Notes under the pieces: model-generated
What the model was told of the DNA's origin: nothing
Seen by the model: the letters and a program-made list of their open reading frames with translations, nothing else
Databases searched by the model: none
Shown here: in pieces, positions 1-29,628 of the stretch
How the letters are laid out: each line of letters opens with the position of its first letter
Numbering within the stretch: position 1 is the first letter of the stretch
Position numbers and translations under genes: made by a program
Virus genome (UHGV): UHGV-2005300
From: a virus
Direction: 5' to 3' (one strand)
Length of the DNA: 38,727 bases

Positions 1-105
1 TGCTGAGATTTCAACCTGTTGCAGTAAAAATGAGTAGATATAGGGCAAGTGTGCTGCCAAACCCATCTTTTACGGGGCGAAGGTAGATATTGTTAGAAGG
101 GTATC

Positions 106-120
106 TGGTGTCCCCTGCAG
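106..120. repeat. attL core TGGTGTCCCCTGCAG (displaced copy of the tRNA 3' end)
   Basis: Exact 15-bp match to 38652-38666; sequence diverges immediately on both sides. Confidence 0.8.
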
Positions 121-193
121 ACATCTACTTGAGGCGGCAGGGGATTGATTGGAATGGTGTTTTTTAGATGTGAAAAATATTTTACCCGCTATT

Positions 194-394
194 TTACCCA
201 TTGGCGCGGCTTAAGAGCTTATTTTTGAATTCACAATGGTCACGATATAACCATCTTGCTCGTCCGTGGATAACTTTGGCTTTAGGCAGGTCGCCGGACT
301 TAATCCGGTCATAGATGAAGGTCTTACCGAAGCCAGTATCAGCCATGATGAATTTCAAATCAACCAGTGAATCAGGTTGTAGTTCGTGTTGCAT
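194..394 (-). CDS. AlpA-family excisionase / small DNA-binding regulator
   Basis: 66 aa; motif MADTGFGKTFIYDRIKSGDLPKAKV resembles AlpA/Xis-type helix-turn-helix; GGAGA ribosome-binding site; last gene before attL. Confidence 0.6.
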   Translation of the reverse strand: MQHELQPDSLVDLKFIMADTGFGKTFIYDRIKSGDLPKAKVIHGRARWLYRDHCEFKNKLLSRANG

Positions 395-436
395 GAGTGC
401 TATCTCCGAATATGGAATCGAACCTGCAAATCAGGT

Positions 437-460
437 AATAAAAAAACCGCATTGATGCGG
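437..460 (-). terminator. Intrinsic terminator upstream of xis
   Basis: Minus-strand RNA CCGCAUcaAUGCGG followed by U7. Confidence 0.5.
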
Positions 461-517
461 CGATGGTAGGTCTGGATATCTTGATAAATGAAAATGCCTC
501 ATCGAGTGTGAGGCGGG

Positions 518-862
518 TTAGTCCTTGCGTAGCTCGCTGATTCTTCTGTAAGTCTCTGGTGCTTTGTTTCCGTGTATCTTCATTTCAGACTTCAACAGAG
601 CAACGAGAGAATCCCATTCGTTGAGGATGCCTTTGAATGCCGGAACGCGCTTTGCAACCTTGTCGAATGAATCTCTGATTTCTGGAATCTGCTCAACAAG
701 TGCAACGCATCGCCGGAAATCGGCTGCGTCATGTGGAGCACCGAAGCTATGACCATAGATATTCTTTTTCAGTCCACATGCGATTGAGGCAAGAGTTGCG
801 CTACTGATGCCGACATCGCCAGTCGATTGCCATTTCAAAACCTTCATAGCCAAATCTGACAT
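518..862 (-). CDS. Hypothetical protein (114 aa)
   Basis: ORF-track ORF 518-889 trimmed to the ATG at 862 (MSDLAMK...), because the upstream ATG lies inside the terminator hairpin. Confidence 0.5.
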   Translation of the reverse strand: MSDLAMKVLKWQSTGDVGISSATLASIACGLKKNIYGHSFGAPHDAADFRRCVALVEQIPEIRDSFDKVAKRVPAFKGILNEWDSLVALLKSEMKIHGNKAPETYRRISELRKD

Positions 863-874
863 TTCTTGTCTACA

Positions 875-897
875 ATAAAAAACCGCCATCAGGCGGC
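875..897 (-). terminator. Intrinsic terminator
   Basis: Minus-strand hairpin CCGCC-UGAU-GGCGG followed by U6; overlaps the stop of the 55-aa gene. Confidence 0.5.
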
Positions 898-1056
898 ATG
901 GTGTTCTTTCAGTTCTTCAATTCGAATATTGGTTACGTCTGCATGCGCTATCTGCGCCCATATCATCCAGTGGTTATAGCAGTCGTTGATGTTCTCTGCT
1001 TCGATAACTCTGTTGAATGGTTCTCCATTCCATTCACCTGTGACTCGGAAGTGCAT
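889..1056 (-). CDS. Hypothetical small protein (55 aa, MHFRVTGEWNGEPF...)
   Basis: Not in the ORF track (under 60 aa); ATG with GGAG ribosome-binding site 7 nt upstream; translated by hand. Confidence 0.4.
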   Translation of the reverse strand: MHFRVTGEWNGEPFNRVIEAENINDCYNHWMIWAQIAHADVTNIRIEELKEHHAA

Positions 1057-1068
1057 TTATCATCTCCA

Positions 1069-1094
1069 TAAAACAAAACTCGCCGTAGCGAGTT
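1069..1094 (-). terminator. Intrinsic terminator
   Basis: Minus-strand hairpin AACUCGC-uacg-GCGAGUU followed by a U-rich tract. Confidence 0.45.
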
Positions 1095-1139
1095 CAGATA
1101 TAATTTCCACCAAAGGCAGTAGTTGCTTGATGCTAAGAA

Positions 1140-1568
1140 TTATTCAATATCTATTCCTGTAATATCTTTTATCTTTTTCCTTGCAAAGCCTTTTGCTAGT
1201 GATTTTGAAACACTCATAAGTGTACTAATTCCCTCATCCTTAAAGTTTGTTTTTATAGCTTGCCAGACATCCTTTTGACGTAAGTCAGCAATAAAATCAT
1301 GCCCTCTTGCTGTCAACCTCAGTGGTACTTCGATCCAACTATATCCAACACCTTCCCCTAACGCTTTGGACATTATATGACCGAACCCAGGTTTTCCATC
1401 AACCCTGACTATTAATTCGTAGTCATATAATAATCGCATATGGAAAATAAAATCTTGGTCATATCTATTAAAGCCATTATCCTCTAGTTCACTAAGCATC
1501 GTGTCAGGGCCACGAGTTTTTTCGAATGCGATAAGTAGATCTTTTAGATATTGCTGGTCTAATTTCAT
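1140..1568 (-). CDS. Hypothetical protein (142 aa), AT-rich accessory gene
   Basis: Intact ORF with GGAGG ribosome-binding site 5 nt before the ATG; GC content visibly lower than neighbours; the motif LRLTARGHDFIADLRQKDVWQ may match a small phage DUF family (uncertain). Confidence 0.65.
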   Translation of the reverse strand: MKLDQQYLKDLLIAFEKTRGPDTMLSELEDNGFNRYDQDFIFHMRLLYDYELIVRVDGKPGFGHIMSKALGEGVGYSWIEVPLRLTARGHDFIADLRQKDVWQAIKTNFKDEGISTLMSVSKSLAKGFARKKIKDITGIDIE

Positions 1569-1578
1569 TGCCGCCTCC

Positions 1579-1590
1579 GTGACATGTCAC
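1579..1590. promoter_or_regulatory. Perfect 12-bp palindrome GTGACATGTCAC, candidate operator
   Basis: Sits immediately upstream of the ribosome-binding site of the 1140-1568 gene. Confidence 0.3.
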
Positions 1591-1757
1591 AGAGATTTAT
1601 ATCATTAATTTTGTTTCGTGCCAGCCTTTGGTCACCCAGCATTGTGAGTCACCATTACACGGGCATGAATTAACAGGAACTCTCTCGCCGCACTTACCGC
1701 AACGTTTTCTGCTGATCGATTTTATACGCCAGCGCACATGTGCATCATCCTGGCGGC

Positions 1758-2213
1758 TCAGTAACGCGATGTACTCACCAAACTCGCAAGGCGAATGCCT
1801 GAAGCGGCGCGTGGCTCAGTTACGATCCAGCATTTCAATTTCCTGAGCATCAAGTACAAGCTCCAGCTTACGCATACCGGATGATGCTTGCTTGGCTCTC
1901 TGATCGGCTTTGCGCTCTGCTGATGATTTAGCCATTCTGCTTTTCCTGCATTAGGAGAAAGACAATCATGGCGGCGCGGATACTTCCGGTATCTTTTTAC
2001 GCGATATTCCCCATCCAGAGCACATACAAGAAGAGATCCATCAACAGGAGTGAGTGATGAATCGACCACCAGCAATGCACCCTGCAATATTCCCTCACGA
2101 TGATGGCTACCAGCTGCCCTCAAGAAGTAGGTCGCTGAAGGATGTCTAATTATCTGCTGATCAAGAGAAATACGGCTCTCAGCATAATCCGCCGCAGGAG
2201 AAGGGAAGCCCAT
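1758..2213 (-). CDS. UmuD'-like S24-fold protein (HumD-like, no cleavable N-terminal arm), divergent C-terminus
   Basis: Starts M-GFPSPAADYAESRISLDQQIIRHPSATYF, closely matching E. coli UmuD from its Cys24/Gly25 cleavage site; the reading frame after VKRY no longer resembles UmuD. Confidence 0.6.
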   Translation of the reverse strand: MGFPSPAADYAESRISLDQQIIRHPSATYFLRAAGSHHREGILQGALLVVDSSLTPVDGSLLVCALDGEYRVKRYRKYPRRHDCLSPNAGKAEWLNHQQSAKPIREPSKHHPVCVSWSLYLMLRKLKCWIVTEPRAASGIRLASLVSTSRY

Positions 2214-2231
2214 AATACTCGCCTCTTAATG

Positions 2232-2274
2232 CTGTGTATATATACAGTATATGTTGAAGCTATATATTTTTGAA
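2232..2274 (-). promoter_or_regulatory. SOS promoter: LexA box CTGTGTATATATACAG overlapping -10 TATACT, with -35 TTCAAA
   Basis: CTGT-N8-ACAG consensus at 2232-2247, 19 bp upstream of the UmuD'-like ATG; 17-bp spacer between -35 and -10 (read on the minus strand). Confidence 0.7.
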
Positions 2275-2544
2275 CTCTATCTCTTAAAAAAGATGTTAAT
2301 AAGATGCTAACTATTGAAAGGCATAAATATATACTATTCCAACAAACGTTATTTTTAACAAATTTTTTCTCTCCGTTGACTTTTGCGAAAGCCTTGTCTG
2401 GCCTAAATTGCGCGGAAGCTACTTTTTCCTTCCTGAGTTATCCACAGAGTTATGCACTTGCATGTATAACCTATACACACTATCTTAATTCGCAAGACAT
2501 TGATGTTGCGGTATTGAAGGTTCATTGGGTTAAAAATAGACATT

Positions 2545-2575
2545 AAAAAGCCCAGTTGACTAGGCTGGGCTTTTT
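2545..2575. terminator. Bidirectional intrinsic terminator
   Basis: AAAAAGCCCAG-ttgactag-GCTGGGCTTTTT, with an A-run on one side and a T-run on the other. Confidence 0.55.
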
Positions 2576-2612
2576 AAAAGGAAACAGAGTTTGCGGCTCT
2601 GTTCCTGAGCCA

Positions 2613-2801
2613 TAAGTATCTGGCGACTGAATTAAGATTAACCGAATGTACTGGATTCATCAAGAAACGTTGAGTGGTCATACCAGGTAATAATGACCAT
2701 TTACTAAACATCGTTGTTCTCAAAGAAGATTTAAGTCCAGGTTTTTGGTGACTCTAAAACCTTACCTTAACTCGAAATCGTGCCGTAAGTATCTGGCGAC
2801 T
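2613..2801. repeat. Direct repeats TAAGTATCTGGCGACT (2613-2628, 2786-2801), part of a degenerate tandem duplication
   Basis: Two 16-bp copies; the 2771-2790 segment also resembles the 5' end of the small ORF at 2876. Confidence 0.5.
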
Positions 2802-2875
2802 ACAGATATTGCAACTGCAAAGGCAAGCCCAAAGGTATTTGCAGCTAGGCGCGATAAAACTAAGTGAGGCCTGTT

Positions 2876-2959
2876 ATGGTTAACTTACTGTTCAAAATCG
2901 TGCCGCCGATGTTCGCGATTATCAAAGCGATCATTGAGTACGTAAACCAGCGTCCATAA
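2876..2959 (+). CDS. Small hydrophobic peptide (27 aa, MVNLLFKIVPPMFAIIKAIIEYVNQRP)
   Basis: GAGG ribosome-binding site 6 nt upstream; followed by a GC-rich 8-bp stem hairpin at 2973-2997; opposite strand to the surrounding operon; under the ORF-track length cutoff. Confidence 0.35.
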   Translation: MVNLLFKIVPPMFAIIKAIIEYVNQRP

Positions 2960-3014
2960 CGCTAGTTGCTACAGGCCCCATCAAGAGCATGGGGCCTCTT
3001 TATCGTACTATTGC

Positions 3015-3680
3015 TTATTTTTTACGGACTGAGTTGTTCACTGCTCTGGCAATCTTCTCCCGCAATTGCTGCGTTCCGTGGTACTGAACCGCAATATCCC
3101 TCAACTCGTTCACCAGTTCTCGAATCTGGTGATCTTTAAGCTCATTATTTGGGTGATTGGTAACAACTCTGGTTAATTCACCCTTGTCTTTTGCTCTTAC
3201 GTATGCAGCTCTTGTGCATTCGACCCATGTATTACCGCCTACATTAACTTCGTAGATTAGGCTGGACTTATCTGTCAATTCGGAACAAATACGGGCCGTG
3301 GTCTGGCAACTAGAGCATTCGCAGTTATCGCGGAAACCGTGGTCTACTGGCTTCGGTTTCACATCATCAACTTTTTCTACCCTATTGGAATTTAAATACT
3401 TCGAAGCCTTGCTATGCCAATCGCTGGTTTTAGGATCTTGTCCATCCATCAAACGCCAGGCTTCAGCGATTAACTCATAACTAGTGACTGTAGCTTCCTG
3501 CGCATCACCAATAAGTCGTGTAATCTCTCTTTCAAGCCGACCGCCTAGCTCTGTTTTAGTGCAATGTTCTGACCAATCGCCAGCCTCAAGCAGCGCGAGA
3601 ATGCTTAAAATATCGTCCAATAGAACGGTAGTATTATCGACTTCCTTCTGAAACTCACCGGCTACTGATTTATGCATCAT
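3015..3680 (-). CDS. Hypothetical early protein (221 aa)
   Basis: Long intact ORF coupled (ATGA) to the upstream gene; contains a cysteine cluster DNCECSSCQTTARIC; no family recognised by eye. Confidence 0.7.
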   Translation of the reverse strand: MMHKSVAGEFQKEVDNTTVLLDDILSILALLEAGDWSEHCTKTELGGRLEREITRLIGDAQEATVTSYELIAEAWRLMDGQDPKTSDWHSKASKYLNSNRVEKVDDVKPKPVDHGFRDNCECSSCQTTARICSELTDKSSLIYEVNVGGNTWVECTRAAYVRAKDKGELTRVVTNHPNNELKDHQIRELVNELRDIAVQYHGTQQLREKIARAVNNSVRKK

Positions 3681-3898
3681 TCGTCATCCTCATCCGAGTC
3701 ATCCTCATCACAGGATGAGAGTAGTGGGTTAGTCATTCGCCCTACTTGAGTGGCGTAGCCACGCCGACAGAGATTGCGCAGCACACTGTATATTTCGAAC
3801 ATCTCGGTTCGTTCATCGCCAACATCAAGCTCAGATGCTATAGCGTGGCATTCAGTCGCGAGAGCCGATATTTTCTGAAATAACTCTGCTTTATTCAC
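3677..3898 (-). CDS. Hypothetical acidic small protein (73 aa, GTG start)
   Basis: Trimmed from ORF 3677-4075; proposed GTG start overlaps the stop of the upstream gene with GGAG 7 nt upstream; acidic C-terminal tail. Confidence 0.4.
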   Translation of the reverse strand: MNKAELFQKISALATECHAIASELDVGDERTEMFEIYSVLRNLCRRGYATQVGRMTNPLLSSCDEDDSDEDDE

Positions 3899-4187
3899 TC
3901 TTCGACTCCTGTGGCGGTTCTGGTAGTGGCATCCAGTGAGTTGCTTGCTCAATAATGAGTTGCTCTTCGCTTTTCTCCAGTTCAGCAATGCGCTTACTCC
4001 CATCCGAGATAACACCTTCGTAATACTCACGCTGCTCGTTGAGTTTTGATTCAAGTTCACCGAACTTACGGACAAGATATTCAGCGTTTGTTTCGTTAAC
4101 CTTTAAATCTCGTGGGATGCATTTACCTTTCAGAAATCCATCCATCTCAATTAGTGACATTTGTTTCATTTCTTCCCACTCCGCCAC
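3891..4187 (-). CDS. Hypothetical coiled-coil protein (98 aa)
   Basis: ORF-track ORF with protein-like charged/helical composition. Confidence 0.6.
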
Positions 4188-4348
4188 ATCGCATTCAGAT
4201 ATTTGTTTTGATTTACTGATGGAAAAGAATTTCTCTTAAGCAATTCCTCTCTCGATGGCATTGGCTTTACGCGTTGGCGAATAATCATTTCTGCCGGAAG
4301 AATGCCGGGATTGTATGCAAGTCCTCTCATGGTAAATTCCTCAGTCAT
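4166..4348 (-). CDS. Hypothetical small protein (60 aa)
   Basis: Internal ATG of ORF 4166-4480 that overlaps the stop of the upstream 97-aa gene. Confidence 0.35.
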
Positions 4349-4634
4349 TACTGATAGCGCCATAGCGTGAGCGGTAATTACGCAGGCGCGGGTCAATTTC
4401 AGGGAAGTGGGTATATGTGGCTTTGCGGAATGGTCGGATTGATGTCTGGTAAATTCGCTCGCGTTCTTCTTTCTCTGCAAGCCATATACAGTGGCGAAAT
4501 TCCTTTTCCTCTTTCGTTTCCTGCGGTAGAGCCATTATTCGATCGTAGTTTTTTCTGAATTTATCCAGCACCTCCGATACGGAATTGCCGGAACAGCGGC
4601 GTGGGTCATCCGCACCATACAGAGGCGCTGGCAT
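4341..4634 (-). CDS. Hypothetical early protein (97 aa), possibly Abc2-like anti-RecBCD
   Basis: Position downstream of erf and size match my recollection of P22 Abc2; not verified. Confidence 0.55.
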
Positions 4635-4657
4635 AATTAAATCCTTATTTTTCTAAA

Positions 4658-5041
4658 TCAGAATGGGATGGAATCGTCGTATACAGGAGTGTTCTGCTGG
4701 TTACTACTTTGCTGCTGCGGGCCATTTCCTGAAGCTGCAAATCCAATTTTTGCATTCAGTAATTCAAGAGTGATTGATTGACCATTTTGCCCCTGATAAA
4801 CATCAACCCTGATGTTTTCTCCGGTAATTTCCACAATGCCACCTTCAACAAGAACACTACGGTAGTAATCCGCTTGCGCTCCCGGCTTGGCAAATACAAC
4901 GGCGCTGTAGTTTGTCCATTCTTTCTTTTTTGTCTGGCGATCGTAATACTGAACGCCAGCACGGATGTTGAATCCGATATTTTCCCCGGCCTGAAACTCT
5001 CTTGCGGGCTTGTTTAGTCTTACAGTAATCGAATGTGCCAT
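4658..5041 (-). CDS. SSB-like protein (127 aa) with SSB-type C-terminal tip
   Basis: Gln/Gly-rich linker and C-terminus PVYDDSIPF, resembling the bacterial SSB DDDIPF tip; ATG overlaps the erf stop (TAATG). Confidence 0.65.
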   Translation of the reverse strand: MAHSITVRLNKPAREFQAGENIGFNIRAGVQYYDRQTKKKEWTNYSAVVFAKPGAQADYYRSVLVEGGIVEITGENIRVDVYQGQNGQSITLELLNAKIGFAASGNGPQQQSSNQQNTPVYDDSIPF

Positions 5042-5646
5042 TAAGCAGCCGCTCCTTCTAATTCGTCTCGTCTGATGTTGTAAACGCCCTGCGCTTTGTG
5101 CTGCTCCGGTGTGCCTTCGAGCATCTTCCACGCTTTGGCGAACGCCTGTTTAAGCTCTTCTACGGTGTTTTTCTGCATTGCTGCGTCAGTGAATGCTTTT
5201 AGAACCTGTTCAGGTGTAGGTGATGGCTTTGATTGCTTTGCTGCTGCGTTCTGCTGATGTTTATGCTCGTCGGTATCTGCATCTTTCGCATCATCAATGC
5301 CGAATAAACCATTGAGGCAATACTTGCGTGCATAAGAGCTTGTAGCTCCAGTAACTTGTGCAGAATCCATTCCTTTCTTGCTTTCTTCCTCTCGTGCAAG
5401 AGCGGTTGCCGTATGACTGTTTTCGCCATCGGTAATAGTTGCCGTGGCTTTCACGTAATACCGATCACCAATCAACACAACTTCATCGCTGATTGATAAA
5501 AACAGGCCATTCAGTAACGGCTTAACGCCTTCAAGAATGTCTTCGCAGCTTCTGTATTTATATTTGCCGAATGAGTTGTACTGATTCTTTGGCGCGTTCA
5601 GATTCTCCTGAATAGCTGCCAGTCTTGCGTAAAATTCTTTGCTCAT
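5041..5646 (-). CDS. erf: Erf-family single-strand annealing recombinase
   Basis: MSKEFYARLAAIQENLNAPKNQYNSFGKYKYRSCEDILEG matches P22 Erf from memory; first ATG of the ORF. Confidence 0.85.
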   Translation of the reverse strand: MSKEFYARLAAIQENLNAPKNQYNSFGKYKYRSCEDILEGVKPLLNGLFLSISDEVVLIGDRYYVKATATITDGENSHTATALAREEESKKGMDSAQVTGATSSYARKYCLNGLFGIDDAKDADTDEHKHQQNAAAKQSKPSPTPEQVLKAFTDAAMQKNTVEELKQAFAKAWKMLEGTPEQHKAQGVYNIRRDELEGAAA

Positions 5647-5747
5647 ATTATTGTTCTCAGAATGGACACGGCCCAAGGAAATAACGCTGATTTAATACTT
5701 CGACTCGGGACAAATTAAGGCATACCCGCATCCCTTCGCGGTCACCA

Positions 5748-5906
5748 TTATGGCGATACCAGAGAGCTTTCTGCGTGTACATGCGTCTCTGTAACTTGCT
5801 CTCCTTCACTGTGGTTGCAAGTGACATGAATATCTCCTTCGTTACCGATTAAATCTTTCATCTGACGAATGAATTCTTCGTCTGACCAGTTATCTGTAAA
5901 ACTCAT
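5748..5906 (-). CDS. Hypothetical small protein (52 aa, MSFTDNWSDEEF...)
   Basis: ATG overlaps the kil-like stop (ATGA); a competing overlapping 56-aa ORF exists at 5657-5827. Confidence 0.3.
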   Translation of the reverse strand: MSFTDNWSDEEFIRQMKDLIGNEGDIHVTCNHSEGEQVTETHVHAESSLVSP

Positions 5907-6055
5907 TTCCTGCGATACCACGGAAGGTTGATAGCTGATTTCATCGCTTTATTTGCTTCAAGCCACATTTTTGAATCACCAATAAATCTGGCTATTACTG
6001 CTTTGTTCTGTGCAGCACGAAGCATCTGGTGATTAATGGCTATTTCATTGCGCAT
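5903..6055 (-). CDS. kil: Kil-like small protein (50 aa)
   Basis: Segment IARFIGDSKMWLEA resembles lambda Kil as I recall it; GGAGG ribosome-binding site; position after cIII as in lambda. Confidence 0.45.
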   Translation of the reverse strand: MRNEIAINHQMLRAAQNKAVIARFIGDSKMWLEANKAMKSAINLPWYRRK

Positions 6056-6174
6056 AACGCCTCCAGTTGTTTCTTTGCTGCTCTGATTAATTGTTTAACT
6101 CGGCGTGATAATTCAGATTCGTGCGGGTAGAAAGCGGACATGACGCCGCTACCCGCGAGCTGAAAGTGCATCAT
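6040..6174 (-). CDS. cIII: cIII-like small protein (44 aa)
   Basis: MMHFQLAGSGVMSAFYPHESELSRRVKQLIR resembles the lambda CIII core; AAGGAG ribosome-binding site before ATGATG. Confidence 0.5.
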   Translation of the reverse strand: MMHFQLAGSGVMSAFYPHESELSRRVKQLIRAAKKQLEALCAMK

Positions 6175-6257
6175 GGGTAACTCCTTATATTTGATTGCAT
6201 AACGAAAATGCCTCTCGTGAAGCATTATTGGTATGCGGTAAAGCCGCGCTCAGGCGG

Positions 6258-6506
6258 CTACTCTATTTCTTCTTCGAATGATTTTATTAGTCGGTCAATA
6301 ACATCATCCGTTTCAATATCATTTCCGTCTGATTGCTTTAATACATCTATTGATTCTGCAGCGGTAAATTCCATCGCTGTGAGAAACTCGACAATTGTAC
6401 ACTCAACGACATATCGTTCTTCATCTGTACGACATGAGATAAAAGAGCATTTAATTGCTGTTATTACTTTTTGTTTAAGCTCTGCAGGGTAATCAGTTTT
6501 TATCAT
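6258..6506 (-). CDS. Hypothetical acidic protein (82 aa)
   Basis: Intact ORF with GGAG ribosome-binding site; first gene after the terminator at 6519-6548. Confidence 0.6.
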   Translation of the reverse strand: MIKTDYPAELKQKVITAIKCSFISCRTDEERYVVECTIVEFLTAMEFTAAESIDVLKQSDGNDIETDDVIDRLIKSFEEEIE

Positions 6507-6518
6507 CGTTTACTCCGT

Positions 6519-6548
6519 CAAAAAAAACTGCCCTCACATTGGAGGGCA
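6519..6548 (-). terminator. Intrinsic terminator in the leftward early operon (tL-like)
   Basis: Minus-strand hairpin GCCCUC-caaugu-GAGGGC followed by U8. Confidence 0.55.
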
Positions 6549-6670
6549 AAGAAGATTTCCAATAATCAGAACAAGTCGGCTCCTGTTTAGTTACGAGCGA
6601 CATTGCTCCGTGTATTCACTCGTTGGAATGAATACACAGTGCAGTGTTTATTAGTATGCCTGTCTTTTAA

Positions 6671-7568
<898 letters not shown>

Positions 7569-7836
7569 CTGGATTCTCCTGTCAGTTAGCTTTGGTGGTG
7601 TGGTGGCTGGTAGTCTAGCTCCAGCTTGTTGAGTCTCATTCGGAGGGGTATAACCGGCACCCCAGCGATTTTTCCATGCGACAACGTGCGCGTTATGGCG
7701 GCCTTATCGCCCGCGGCTCCCCATCTCGTCCACGCTATTGCTAGCGTTGGGAGCGCTTCACCGCTCAACAGTAGGTAAGCACTTGCCAGTGACTAGCTGG
7801 CTTCACCACACCCCAAAGCCTTCTGCTTTGAATGCT

Positions 7837-7867
7837 GCCCTTCTTCAGGGCTTAATTTTTAAGAGCC
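7837..7867 (-). promoter_or_regulatory. nutL (boxA GGCTCTTAA, boxB GCCCTGAAGAAGGGC)
   Basis: Read on the minus strand; boxB identical to lambda nutL; lies between the candidate pL and N. Confidence 0.8.
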
Positions 7868-7906
7868 TCACCTTCATGGTGGTCAGTGCGTCCTGCTGAT
7901 GGCTAA

Positions 7907-7935
7907 ATAGTACGATTTGTACTTTATCGAGTCAA
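7907..7935 (-). promoter_or_regulatory. Candidate pL (-35 TTGACT, -10 TACTAT) with overlapping dyad AGTACgatttGTACT
   Basis: 17-bp spacer; located between the cI terminator and nutL; dyad at 7909-7923. Confidence 0.45.
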
Positions 7936-7999
7936 TACAAAATGTTCTAAATATAATTAGTTTTTTATAACGCTTTGTATTTAATGGGTTTATATTTTG

Positions 8000-9055: not shown

Positions 9056-9087
9056 CGCTCTTACACATCCCAGCCCTGAAAAAGGGC
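9056..9087 (+). promoter_or_regulatory. nutR (boxA CGCTCTTAC, boxB GCCCTGAAAAAGGGC)
   Basis: Exact lambda-type boxA and boxB just after the cro stop. Confidence 0.8.
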
Positions 9088-9166: not shown

Positions 9167-9460
9167 ATGGTTCGTGCAAACAAACGCAACGAGGCTCTAC
9201 GAATCGAGAGTGCGTTGCTTAACAAAATCGCAATGCTTGGAACTGAGAAGACAGCGGAAGCTGTGGGAGTTGATAAGTCGCAGATCAGCAGGTGGAAGAG
9301 GGACTGGATTCCAAAGTTCTCAATGCTGCTTGCTGTTCTTGAATGGGGCGTCGTTGACGACGACATGGCTCGATTGGCACGACAAGTTGCTTCGATTCTC
9401 ACCAATAAAAAACGCCCGGCGGCAACCGAGCGTTCTGATCAAATCCAGATGGAGTTCTGA
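9167..9460 (+). CDS. cII: Transcriptional activator CII
   Basis: 97 aa [47 protein letters not shown]... essentially lambda CII from memory. Confidence 0.9.
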
Positions 9461-28675: not shown

Positions 28676-29628
28676 TGGCTGATTCGAATCTCAATGAGCC
28701 GGTAATCATTCAGGCTACACGGCTCGACACATCAGTCCTTCCACGCAATATCTTCTCGCAGTCATATCTGCTGTACGTTATCGCACAGGGTACTGATGTT
28801 GGTAACGTGGCGAACAAGGCCAACGAAGCAGGGAAGGGGGCTTATGATGCACAGGTGAAGAATGATGAGCAGGATGTCACCCTTGCAGACCATGAATCCA
28901 GAATTGAAGCTGCTGAAGCAACTCTCAACAATCATGAACATAGAATCTCAGCAGCGGAAAGCACTCTTGCAGATCATGAAACAAGGATTACGGCTGCTGA
29001 AACAGAGTTGGCTGATCACGAGGCGCGAATTGCTGCTAATGAATCTGAGTTAGCAAACCATGATGTGCGCATTACTCAGAATACAGACGATATCGAAGCA
29101 CTTGATACCAGGCTCACAGCGGCAGATGGAAGTATTTCGACGCTACAAAGCACAGTTGGTGATCACTCAACAAGAATATCTGCGCTTGAGTATGCCACTA
29201 CGCGCAAGAAGTCAGAGGTTGTTTACTCTGGCGTATCTGTCACCATCCCGACAGCGCCGACCAACCTTGTTAGCCTGCTGAAAACGCTCACGCCGTCATC
29301 CGGCACGTTGGCACCATTCTTCGATACCGTTAACAACAAGATGGTTGTGTTCAACGAGAACAAAACCTTGTTCTTCAAGCTGTCGATCGTCGGGACGTGG
29401 CCCAGCGGAACCGCTAACAGATCAATGCAGCTAACCTTTTCCGGCTCTGTTCCTGACACACTGGTTAGCAGTCGTAATGCGGCGACAACAACCGACAACA
29501 TCCTGTTAGCTACGTTCTTCAGCGTGGATAAAGACGGATTTCTTGCCACAAATGGCAGTACGTTAACCATTCAGTCAAATGATGCGGCGTTTACTGCCAC
29601 AACCATCAAGATAATCGCGGAGCAGTAA
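28675..29628 (+). CDS. Tail needle (P22 gp26-like N-terminus and coiled coil, plus a C-terminal knob domain)
   Basis: [43 protein letters not shown] then heptad repeats, then about 140 aa of non-coiled-coil sequence. Confidence 0.85.

What the first reader, a model, noticed from the sequence alone, without database searches (positions are those of the whole stretch)
437..1094. Three consecutive intrinsic terminators punctuating the att-proximal early genes
Similar hairpin-plus-U-run terminators at 437-460, 875-897 and 1069-1094 precede xis, the 114-aa gene and the 55-aa gene in turn. All three share an AAAAAACCGC... architecture. Expression of xis would therefore depend on N antitermination, giving tight coupling of excision to early transcription.
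Basis: seen in the sequence. Interest (0 to 1): 0.4.

Follow-up and report, generated by a model that had tools for sequence, protein, structure and literature searches.

The report
Known lambda-type terminators upstream of xis
The hairpins are real, sense-oriented intrinsic transcription terminators in the leftward early operon of a P22-like E. coli prophage, but they arrived with a gene block shared with phages lambda, 434 and HK022, where two of them are already annotated, so the finding is correct and ordinary.

Summary
On the minus strand, hairpin plus U-run sites lie at 461..439 (T1), 897..876 (T2) and 1095..1066 (T3). A fourth, weaker site at 514..486 was missed. That is four strict sites in 700 nt against 0.034 expected from shuffles. 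Only T1 and T2 share the AAAAAACCGC motif.

Window 441-1100 is about 97% identical to the orf55-ORF114 block of HK022 and 434. T1 matches the hairpin annotated t'I in phage 434. T2 holds the orf55 stop codon in its loop and sits where lambda has its hairpin just upstream of pI. T3 is an unannotated hairpin next to the annotated tL4, and tL4 itself is absent here.

The prophage has lambda N, lambda nutL and pL about 7.4 kb upstream. Reading xis as dependent on N is therefore plausible, and it is the textbook lambda logic, but it is untested here.

Three additions:
- xis is a TorI-type excision factor, and att separates it from int.
- A LexA-box promoter at 2232-2247 points toward xis, so the terminators may also shield xis from N-independent SOS transcription.
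- Mosaic joints fall in or beside the U-runs.

Novelty is low.

The parts
437..461 (-). T1: intrinsic terminator. Stem 461..446, loop UCAA, U7 at 445..439. It follows ORF114 and lies 51 nt upstream of the xis ATG. It is the counterpart of the annotated 434 t'I.
   Evidence: for anatomy and energy; the 434 records annotate this hairpin as terminator t'I; it is present after ORF114 in 16 of 18 sequences (17 database loci plus the window), and the only stem changes are wobble-compatible.
486..514 (-). Fourth, weaker hairpin directly after the ORF114 stop codon (stem 514..496, tail AUUUUCAUUU).
   Evidence: the stem is kept in all ORF114-bearing sequences, including two with a different loop and no U-rich tail. 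It may therefore be a 3' hairpin rather than a terminator.
518..862 (-). ORF114 (114 aa, phrog_1229, unknown function), the gene bracketed by T2 and T1.
   Evidence: It corresponds to 'ORF114' of phage 434 record M60848.
875..897 (-). T2: intrinsic terminator. Stem 897..882, U6 at 881..876. The orf55 stop codon TGA (889-891) lies in the loop. It corresponds in position and sequence to the lambda hairpin immediately upstream of pI (the lambda t'I position).
   Evidence: it is nearly invariant in 108 sequences whatever gene follows it.
889..1056 (-). orf55 (55 aa, phrog_676), the homologue of lambda orf55.
1066..1095 (-). T3: terminator-like hairpin in the orf55 leader. 8-bp stem, UACG tetraloop, then UUUUGUUUU. 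It is not the annotated tL4, which is the neighbouring upstream hairpin and is absent from this window.
   Evidence: it is present in 92 of 99 orf55 leaders. The homologous lambda site is at 29324..29305.
194..394 (-). xis, a TorI-type recombination directionality factor (66 aa), the last gene before att.
   Evidence: phrog_66. RefSeq annotates identical genes as torI.
106..120 (.). att core TGGTGTCCCCTGCAG. It is repeated at 38652-38666 inside argW tRNA-Arg(CCU).
2232..2274 (-). LexA box CTGTGTATATATACAG (2232-2247), adjoined by a -10-like TATACT that shares 2 nt with it, in a leftward promoter-like site (2274..2246) in front of a decayed UmuD-like gene. It is a candidate N-independent source of transcription toward T3-T1 and xis.
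   Evidence: this is the only exact CTGT-N8-ACAG in the window.
7245..7568 (-). Lambda-type N antiterminator gene.
7837..7935 (-). pL-like promoter (7935..7907) and lambda-type nutL (boxA GCTCTTAAAAA, boxB GCCCTGAAGAAGGGC at 7851..7837).

Best explanation
T1, T2 and T3, and perhaps the weaker hairpin at 514..496, are Rho-independent terminators of the leftward early (pL) operon of a P22-like, argW-integrated E. coli prophage.

They are not local inventions. They belong to a 660-bp orf55-ORF114 block (441-1100) shared at about 97% identity with lambda-like phages. T1 corresponds to the hairpin annotated t'I in phage 434. T2 corresponds to the lambda hairpin at the orf55 stop, just upstream of pI. 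T3 is the second hairpin of a tandem pair whose first member is annotated tL4 in HK022 and 434.

Proposed mechanism (inferred, not shown). RNA polymerase that starts at pL and is modified by N at nutL reads through all of them and transcribes xis. Unmodified polymerase is stopped stepwise before xis. Unmodified polymerase could come from pL before N accumulates, or from internal N-independent promoters such as the LexA-box promoter at 2232-2274.

In this recombination module int lies across att. In the related KplE1 prophage, int has its own promoter. The supply of the excision factor is therefore likely to be the deciding input for excision, so its insulation is functionally sensible.
For: - Anatomy and statistics. 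There are 4 strict sites in 701 nt against 0.034 expected. All are in sense orientation and at gene boundaries.
- Orthology to annotated terminators: window 441-1100 matches HK022 and 434 at 95-97% identity. M60848 and OL657226 annotate the T1 counterpart as terminator t'I, the latter citing PMID 6305007.
- Positive control: the same scan on lambda flags the homologous sites at 29128, 29324 and 29356, plus five other sites on the lambda leftward strand.
- Antitermination machinery: lambda N, and nutL and nutR boxB.
- No promoter-like site and no CII box between T3 and xis.
- Lambda precedent for xis-int co-transcription from PL through N antitermination, and for uncoupled int and RDF transcription in KplE1/HK620/Sf6-type modules: PMC2951348.
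- xis is TorI-type. int is at 37333-38526, across att.
- LexA box in front of the UmuD-like gene.
Against: - No transcription data were available, so termination efficiency, N-dependence and activity of the LexA-box promoter are all inferred.
- The homologues are too similar (at least 95%) for covariation to prove structure. Stem changes seen are wobble-compatible (T1 GCUGC; T3 U-G), but some lineages carry disruptive changes. The 434-type T2 reads GGAGG (-7.3 instead of -13.0 kcal/mol), and there are T3 variants at -5 to -6 kcal/mol. Not every copy is under strong selection.
- T2's 5' arm is coding, so part of its conservation is protein constraint.
- A closely following ribosome terminating at the stop codon in the T2 loop could suppress T2.
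- The related phage Kapi1 has only T2 before the same xis. Three or four terminators are therefore not required for this xis.
Confidence: 0.8

Rival explanations
1. Cassette terminators whose main selected role is insulation. Each hairpin is the 3' end (T2, T1) or 5' gate (T3) of an independently mobile small gene. Their relevant job is to stop N-independent transcripts, for example from the SOS-controlled promoter at 2232-2274 that may fire in a lysogen, from reaching xis. On this view they do not exist to make pL-driven xis expression N-dependent.
For: - T2 stays with orf55 and T1 with ORF114 whatever lies downstream.
- The LexA box adjoins a -10-like hexamer 1.15 kb upstream of T3, with no strict terminator-like site between them.
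- In KplE1-type modules int is expressed on its own (PMC2951348), so stray xis transcription would be costly.
Against: - This is compatible with, rather than exclusive of, the N-gating view.
- The UmuD-like cassette looks decayed: the S24 match is truncated and the regulator is split into two ORFs. Its promoter may be irrelevant.
- ORF114 has no promoter of its own, so it is not a classical moron.
- Kapi1-type phages manage with T2 alone.
Confidence: 0.35
2. Translation-coupled attenuators or RNA 3'-end stabilisers. T2, with the orf55 stop codon in its loop, would terminate only when orf55 is not being translated. The hairpins would mainly protect upstream mRNA from 3' exonucleases or set relative gene dosage along the operon.
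For: - The stop codon TGA sits in the T2 loop and the last two codons form the 5' arm.
- The 514..496 hairpin keeps its stem in relatives that lack a U-rich tail. That fits a stabiliser rather than a terminator.
Against: - T1 and T2 have uninterrupted U7 and U6 tracts directly after short GC-rich stems, which is the signature of termination and is not needed for a stabiliser.
- The T1 counterpart is annotated as a terminator with a literature reference.
Confidence: 0.12
3. Recombination linkers. On this view the hairpin-plus-T-run sequences are conserved mainly because they are shared microhomologies at which lambdoid modules are exchanged, and they have little transcriptional role in this phage.
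For: - Mosaic joints fall in or just beside the T-runs.
- At least five different downstream modules follow T2. T1 is joined to either lambda-type or TorI-type xis. Three different hairpins precede one common TTTCTTTTATCT run upstream of T3.
- T1 and T2 form a direct repeat flanking ORF114. ORF114-less relatives look like the product of recombination between the two copies.
Against: - Joints at gene boundaries are expected anyway, because only such recombinants are viable.
- This view does not explain the strict sense orientation, the GC-rich stems or the uninterrupted U tracts.
- It is not exclusive of terminator function.
Confidence: 0.08

Closest known systems
t'I terminator of phages lambda and 434, upstream of the CII-dependent pI promoter. 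GenBank M60848 carries the feature 't'-I'. OL657226 annotates it as a terminator citing PMID 6305007. From memory, that paper is Benedik, Mascarenhas and Campbell 1983, Virology 126:658.
   Same: T1 is the same hairpin as the 434 t'I: GCCGCATCAATGCGG followed by a T-run, after ORF114 and before xis. T2 is the same hairpin as the lambda element between orf55 and pI/xis: GCCGCCTGATGGCGG followed by T6. Both face the same way in the pL operon.
   Different: In lambda, 434 and HK022 the T-run runs straight into the CII box and pI -35 region (CTTGCGTGTAATTGC). Here the sequence after the T-run is replaced by the leader of a TorI-type xis, and there is no CII box. The host phage is a P22-like podovirus, not a lambda-like siphovirus.
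tL4 terminator, annotated in HK022 (X51962) and 434 (M60848)
   Same: It has the same location class, upstream of orf55 at the end of the preceding gene. In lambda, HK022 and 434, T3 lies about 10 nt downstream of tL4, so the two form a tandem pair.
   Different: The annotated tL4 hairpin (AATCCTCGCAYTCGCGGGGATT) is absent from the window. Homology starts at 1100, just after the tL4 T-run. T3 itself carries no annotation in any record I retrieved.
Lambda pL operon terminators overridden by N-nutL antitermination (textbook; PMC2951348 for xis-int)
   Same: Lambda-type N, nutL and pL are present. There are several intrinsic terminators between pL and xis. The window site 6549..6528 is homologous to the lambda site 33952..33931.
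   Different: int is not downstream of xis in the prophage, because att lies between them. N-dependent readthrough would therefore deliver only the excision factor, not Int, until the genome is circular.
KplE1 / HK620 / Sf6 recombination module (TorI RDF, IntS, argW)
   Same: The same RDF (annotated torI), the same argW attachment site, and int and RDF at opposite prophage ends.
   Different: KplE1 is a remnant without the immunity and N region. Here the module sits at the end of an apparently intact N-controlled operon.
Morons: promoter-gene-terminator cassettes of lambdoid phages (Hendrix and Juhala concept, from memory)
   Same: Small accessory genes with their own terminators, with variable presence between otherwise collinear phages.
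   Different: orf55 and ORF114 have no detectable promoters of their own. They are read from the operon.

Membership tests
Rho-independent (intrinsic) terminator | Short GC-rich stem with a small loop | tested here: met
   T1 has 6 bp with 4 GC and a loop of 4. T2 has 6 bp with 5 GC and a loop of 4. T3 has 8 bp with 4 GC and a UACG loop. Context energies are -9.3, -11.4 and -12.1 kcal/mol, with z from -2.5 to -3.0.
Rho-independent (intrinsic) terminator | U-tract immediately 3' of the stem | tested here: met
   T1 has U7, T2 has U6, and T3 has UUUUGUUUU with the first three U in the stem. The 514..496 hairpin has only AUUUUCAUUU, which is borderline.
Rho-independent (intrinsic) terminator | Sense orientation at a gene boundary of a transcription unit, more often than chance | tested here: met
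   All sites are on the coding (minus) strand between or at the ends of genes. There are 4 sites against 0.034 expected in 2000 shuffles.
Rho-independent (intrinsic) terminator | RNA 3' ends or transcript release at the U-tract | not testable with these tools
   No transcriptome data were available. The only indirect support is the annotation of the 434 homologue with a literature reference.
lambda/434 t'I | Sequence orthology to the annotated t'I hairpin | tested here: met
   T1 differs from the 434 t'I stem only at the closing position (GCGGT against GCGGC). T2 matches the 6-pair core of the lambda hairpin at 29128..29109; only a flanking base differs.
lambda/434 t'I | Lies directly upstream of the CII-activated pI promoter | tested here: not met
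   There is no TTGY-N6-TTGY box and no promoter-like site between T1 and xis. The only lambda-like CII box is the pRE-type site at 9176-9189.
tL4 (HK022/434 annotation) | Identity with the annotated hairpin AATCCTCGC...GGGGATT | tested here: not met
   That hairpin is missing from the window. T3 is the adjacent downstream hairpin.
N-antiterminated lambdoid early operon | N protein plus nut site (boxA and boxB) downstream of the early promoter, on the same strand as the terminators | tested here: met
   PF11438 at E = 1.5e-26. boxB GCCCTGAAGAAGGGC at 7837-7851 (minus strand), preceded by GCTCTTAAAAA. pL-like promoter at 7935..7907.
N-antiterminated lambdoid early operon | Readthrough of these terminators requires N | not testable with these tools
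   This needs an RNA comparison between N+ and N- prophages.
Moron cassette | Own promoter upstream and own terminator downstream of the accessory gene | tested here: not met
   Terminators are present, but no minus-strand promoter-like site lies upstream of orf55 or ORF114. The UmuD-like/DUF2513 cassette (1140-2274) does have a LexA-box promoter-like site and is followed by T3, which is inconclusive for that cassette.

The most novel reading that the evidence does not exclude
The terminator cluster may be more than inherited lambda baggage. It could be the working gate of excision in a module where Int is made independently of the lytic operon. On this reading the LexA-box promoter at 2232-2274 sends SOS-induced, N-independent transcripts toward the TorI-type xis. 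The series T3, T2, 514..496 and T1 would set how much leaks through, with T2 modulated by translation of orf55 because its stop codon lies in the loop. Excision would then respond to LexA cleavage partly independently of cI and N. In addition, the hairpin and U-run junctions would be the preferred crossover points that move orf55 and ORF114 between lambda-like siphoviruses and P22-like podoviruses.
Probability: 0.12. Interest if true: 0.45.

Novelty: already known. Interest (0 to 1): 0.15.

Why it matters
It matters little beyond correct annotation. The sites should be labelled as intrinsic terminators of the pL operon. T1 and T2 are t'I-type. T3 is the unannotated partner of tL4.

Three points are modestly useful:
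1. The annotated tL4 and T3 are different hairpins, so tL4 should not be transferred to this phage.
2. The same terminator-bounded orf55-ORF114 block circulates between lambda-like and P22-like phages, with joints in or beside the U-runs.
3. In KplE1-type recombination modules the excision factor is the only lytic-operon-controlled recombination protein. Its insulation by terminators, and a nearby SOS-box promoter, would be worth one experiment if prophage stability at argW is of interest.

Tried and rejected
- **Literature.** Searches for tL4, tL2/tL3, the t'I paper and the exo-xis region found no held paper describing these terminators. The PMID 6305007 paper and a lambda review I tried are not in the library. 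The link to t'I and tL4 therefore rests on GenBank feature tables and on my memory of the 1983 paper's title.
- **Lambda records.** NC_001416 and J02459 carry no terminator features in this region.
- **Rfam.** No family matches 437-1094 at gathering thresholds or at E <= 1.
- **Covariation.** The 100-odd homologous loci are 95-100% identical. I tabulated stem variants and energies instead of running a formal test. The result is mostly invariance, a few wobble-compatible changes and some disruptive ones, which is not decisive.
- **Genome-contig scan for orf55**. It returned mainly lambda DNA in unrelated taxa, which looks like control-DNA contamination, so it added no diversity.
- **pI-like promoter or CII box downstream of T1.** None found.
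- **Bidirectional terminators.** Rejected. The plus-strand complements lack T-runs after the stems. Only a weak plus-strand hit at 884-903 was reported.
- **ORF114 as a classical moron.** Rejected for lack of a promoter.
- **Chance.** Rejected by shuffling.

Full report
**What the window is**

The 38.7-kb window is a complete P22-like (Lederbergvirus-type) prophage. Its closest annotated relatives around the finding include Kapi1, N7 and HF4s.

The prophage is integrated at argW. tRNA-Arg(CCU) lies at 38652-38726 on the minus strand. The 15-nt att core TGGTGTCCCCTGCAG occurs at 106-120 and at 38652-38666.

The integrase gene (397 aa; Phage_integrase, Arm-DNA-bind_3) is at 37333-38526 at the right end. 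The excision gene is at 194-394 at the left end, and both are on the minus strand. Identical genes are called torI in RefSeq E. coli genomes, and Kapi1 has the same layout. This is the KplE1/HK620/Sf6-type recombination module, in which att separates int from the excision factor and the two are transcribed separately (PMC2951348).

**The leftward operon**

Reading the minus strand from high to low coordinates:
- a pL-like promoter, TTGACT-17-TACTAT, at 7935..7907;
- a lambda-type nutL, with boxA GCTCTTAAAAA and boxB GCCCTGAAGAAGGGC at 7851..7837;
- a lambda-type N gene at 7568..7245 (PF11438, E = 1.5e-26).

nutR boxB is at 9073-9087 on the plus strand. Genes then run leftward down to xis.

**Checking the observation**

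| Site | Stem | Tail | MFE of folded context (kcal/mol) |
|---|---|---|---|
| T1 | 461..446, GCCGCAUCAAUGCGGU | U7 | -9.3 |
| T2 | 897..882, GCCGCCUGAUGGCGGU | U6 | -11.4 |
| T3 | 1095..1076, GAACUCGC-UACG-GCGAGUUU | UGUUUUAUGG | -12.1 |

Each context folds 2.5 to 3.0 sd better than its shuffles. The hairpins survive in 100-nt contexts.

A stricter scan of my own finds four minus-strand sites in 420-1120. The fourth is 514..496, just after the ORF114 stop. The mean in 2000 dinucleotide shuffles is 0.034, and no shuffle had more than one site. The whole leftward operon (1-7950) has six such sites, at 6549, 2566, 1095, 897, 514 and 461. The cluster is therefore real and far beyond chance.

Two details of the description need correcting. 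Only T1 and T2 share the AAAAAACCGC motif; they form a 21-nt direct repeat at 81% identity, 436 nt apart. T2 overlaps the end of orf55, with the stop codon TGA (889-891) in its loop.

**What the sites are**

Window 441-1100 is 95-97% identical to the orf55-ORF114 segment of HK022, 434, mEp043, mEp213, Gally and several Stx1a phages. Three public records carry relevant features:
- The 434 record M60848 annotates 'ORF114', 'ORF55', a terminator 't'-I' between ORF114 and xis, and a terminator 't-L4' upstream of ORF55.
- The re-annotated 434 genome OL657226 marks the same t'I hairpin as a terminator, citing PMID 6305007. The hairpin directly abuts the CII box and the pI -35 region.
- The HK022 record X51962 annotates 'tL4'.

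Side-by-side sequences give the following picture.

1. T1 is the 434/HK022 t'I hairpin, GCCGCATCAATGCGG.
2. T2 is the hairpin that sits at the orf55 stop and immediately precedes the CII box and pI in lambda, which has no ORF114. It is therefore the lambda counterpart of t'I. I recall, but could not retrieve, that PMID 6305007 is Benedik, Mascarenhas and Campbell 1983, 'The integrase promoter and T'I terminator in bacteriophages lambda and 434'.
3. The annotated tL4 is a different hairpin, AATCCTCGCAYTCGCGGGGATT. It lies about 10 nt upstream of the T3 homologue and is absent from the window, because homology begins at 1100, just after its T-run. T3 is thus the unannotated second member of a tandem pair.

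As a control, my scan on lambda flags 29356 (tL4 position), 29324 (T3 homologue) and 29128 (t'I position). It also flags five other sites on the lambda leftward strand, including 33952, which is homologous to window 6549..6528.

**Comparative behaviour**

I collected about 100 loci containing orf55.

- **T2.** It is almost invariant in 108 sequences, whatever follows it. The downstream partner can be lambda xis with its CII box, ORF114, the TorI-type xis, or two other genes. Divergence begins in or right after the T-run.
- **T1.** It follows ORF114 in 16 of 18 sequences (17 database loci plus the window) and is joined to either lambda-type or TorI-type xis. The only stem changes are wobble-compatible: GCUGC within the stem, and G-U in place of G-C at the closing pair.
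- **T3.** It is part of the orf55 leader in 92 of 99 sequences. Upstream of it, several different genes, and three different hairpins, abut one common TTTCTTTTATCT run.
- **ORF114 presence.** Phages such as Kapi1 have orf55-T2-xis with no ORF114. That is exactly the product expected from recombination between the T2 and T1 repeats.
- **Degraded copies.** Some lineages carry weakened hairpins. The 434-type T2 has a C-to-A mismatch (-7.3 against -13.0 kcal/mol), and some T3 variants fall to -5 or -6 kcal/mol.

The sequences are too similar for a meaningful covariation test.

**How it most likely works**

What is shown:
- canonical terminator anatomy in the sense orientation;
- orthology to annotated terminators;
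- presence of N and nutL;
- no promoter-like site and no CII box between T3 and xis.

What is inferred: N-modified polymerase from pL reads through the series and expresses xis, and unmodified polymerase is stopped. [quoted passage not shown]

Two local features add colour.

First, int lies across att. In KplE1 it has its own autoregulated promoter. Supply of the excision factor is therefore probably the deciding signal for excision, which makes leak-proofing of xis sensible.

Second, a near-consensus LexA box, CTGTGTATATATACAG (2232-2247), is the only exact CTGT-N8-ACAG in the window. It adjoins a -10-like TATACT and shares 2 nt with it, in a leftward promoter-like site (2274..2246). That site stands in front of a decayed UmuD-like gene, a split regulator and a DUF2513 gene. 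No strict terminator-like site separates this promoter from T3. The cluster would therefore also shield xis from SOS-driven, N-independent transcription. That role is a hypothesis.

A further inference concerns T2. Because its loop holds the orf55 stop codon, a tightly coupled ribosome could suppress it.

**Verdict**

These are already-described lambda-family terminators, t'I-type plus the partner of tL4, carried on a mobile orf55-ORF114 block into a P22-like prophage. Interest is low. The residual novelty lies in the possible SOS-insulation role and in the joints in or beside the U-runs.

Noticed in passing
window 414-429 and 38666-38681, with the att core at 106-120 and 38652-38666: The 16 nt of argW tRNA that directly adjoin the att core (GGAATCGAACCTGCAA, T-arm) recur between T1 and the xis start codon. 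The two neighbouring pieces of the tRNA 3' half are therefore separated in the phage by about 293 nt that hold xis/torI. It looks as if the excision-factor cassette sits inside an older, longer tRNA homology of attP. The same 16-mer is in the Kapi1 xis leader.
   Followed up: partly
window 2212-2274: A near-consensus LexA (SOS) box, CTGTGTATATATACAG, lies at 2232-2247 next to a leftward -10-like hexamer. It stands directly upstream of a UmuD-like (Peptidase_S24) ORF and is the only exact match to the pattern in the window.
   Followed up: partly
window 1597-2213 (minus strand): The UmuD-like ORF matches only positions 21-104 of a 140-position profile. The phrog_536 regulator is split into two ORFs (1816-1935 and 1597-1737). 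The cassette looks frameshifted or decayed, and phage Chlobot carries a similar arrangement.
   Followed up: partly
window 2542-3000: A bidirectional hairpin terminator lies at 2547-2570. There is a weak, sub-threshold Rfam similarity to the AgrB antisense RNA at 2542-2623 on the minus strand (E = 0.074). A small hydrophobic ORF at 2864-2959 on the plus strand (MRPVMVNLLFKIVPPMFAIIKAIIEYVNQRP) is followed by a strong plus-strand terminator at 2973-2997, antisense to the early operon. This could be a small toxin or sRNA insert.
   Followed up: no
window 7568-7836 (minus strand): The leader between the lambda-identical nutL and the N start codon is about 260 nt, GC-rich, and differs from the lambda sequence I recall.
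   Followed up: no
loci L006-L025 (genome-contig hits to orf55): Nearly all hits are lambda-identical DNA in assemblies of unrelated taxa such as Shewanella, Kitasatospora, Oceanobacillus and Bradyrhizobium. Several are on contigs of about 48.4-48.5 kb, and many hits have coverage of roughly 1-2x. This looks like lambda control-DNA contamination of public assemblies.
   Followed up: no
window 862-875: The Shine-Dalgarno sequence of ORF114 reads GTAG here, where HK022 and 434 have GGAG. Only 2 of the collected sequences share this change, so ORF114 may be poorly translated in this prophage.
   Followed up: no
window 441-445, 876-881 and 1096-1100, and loci L026-L105: Mosaic joints between lambda-like and P22-like modules fall in or just beside the T-runs that follow T1, T2 and the (absent) tL4 hairpin. 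At least five different downstream modules follow T2, and three different hairpins precede one common T-run upstream of T3.
   Followed up: partly
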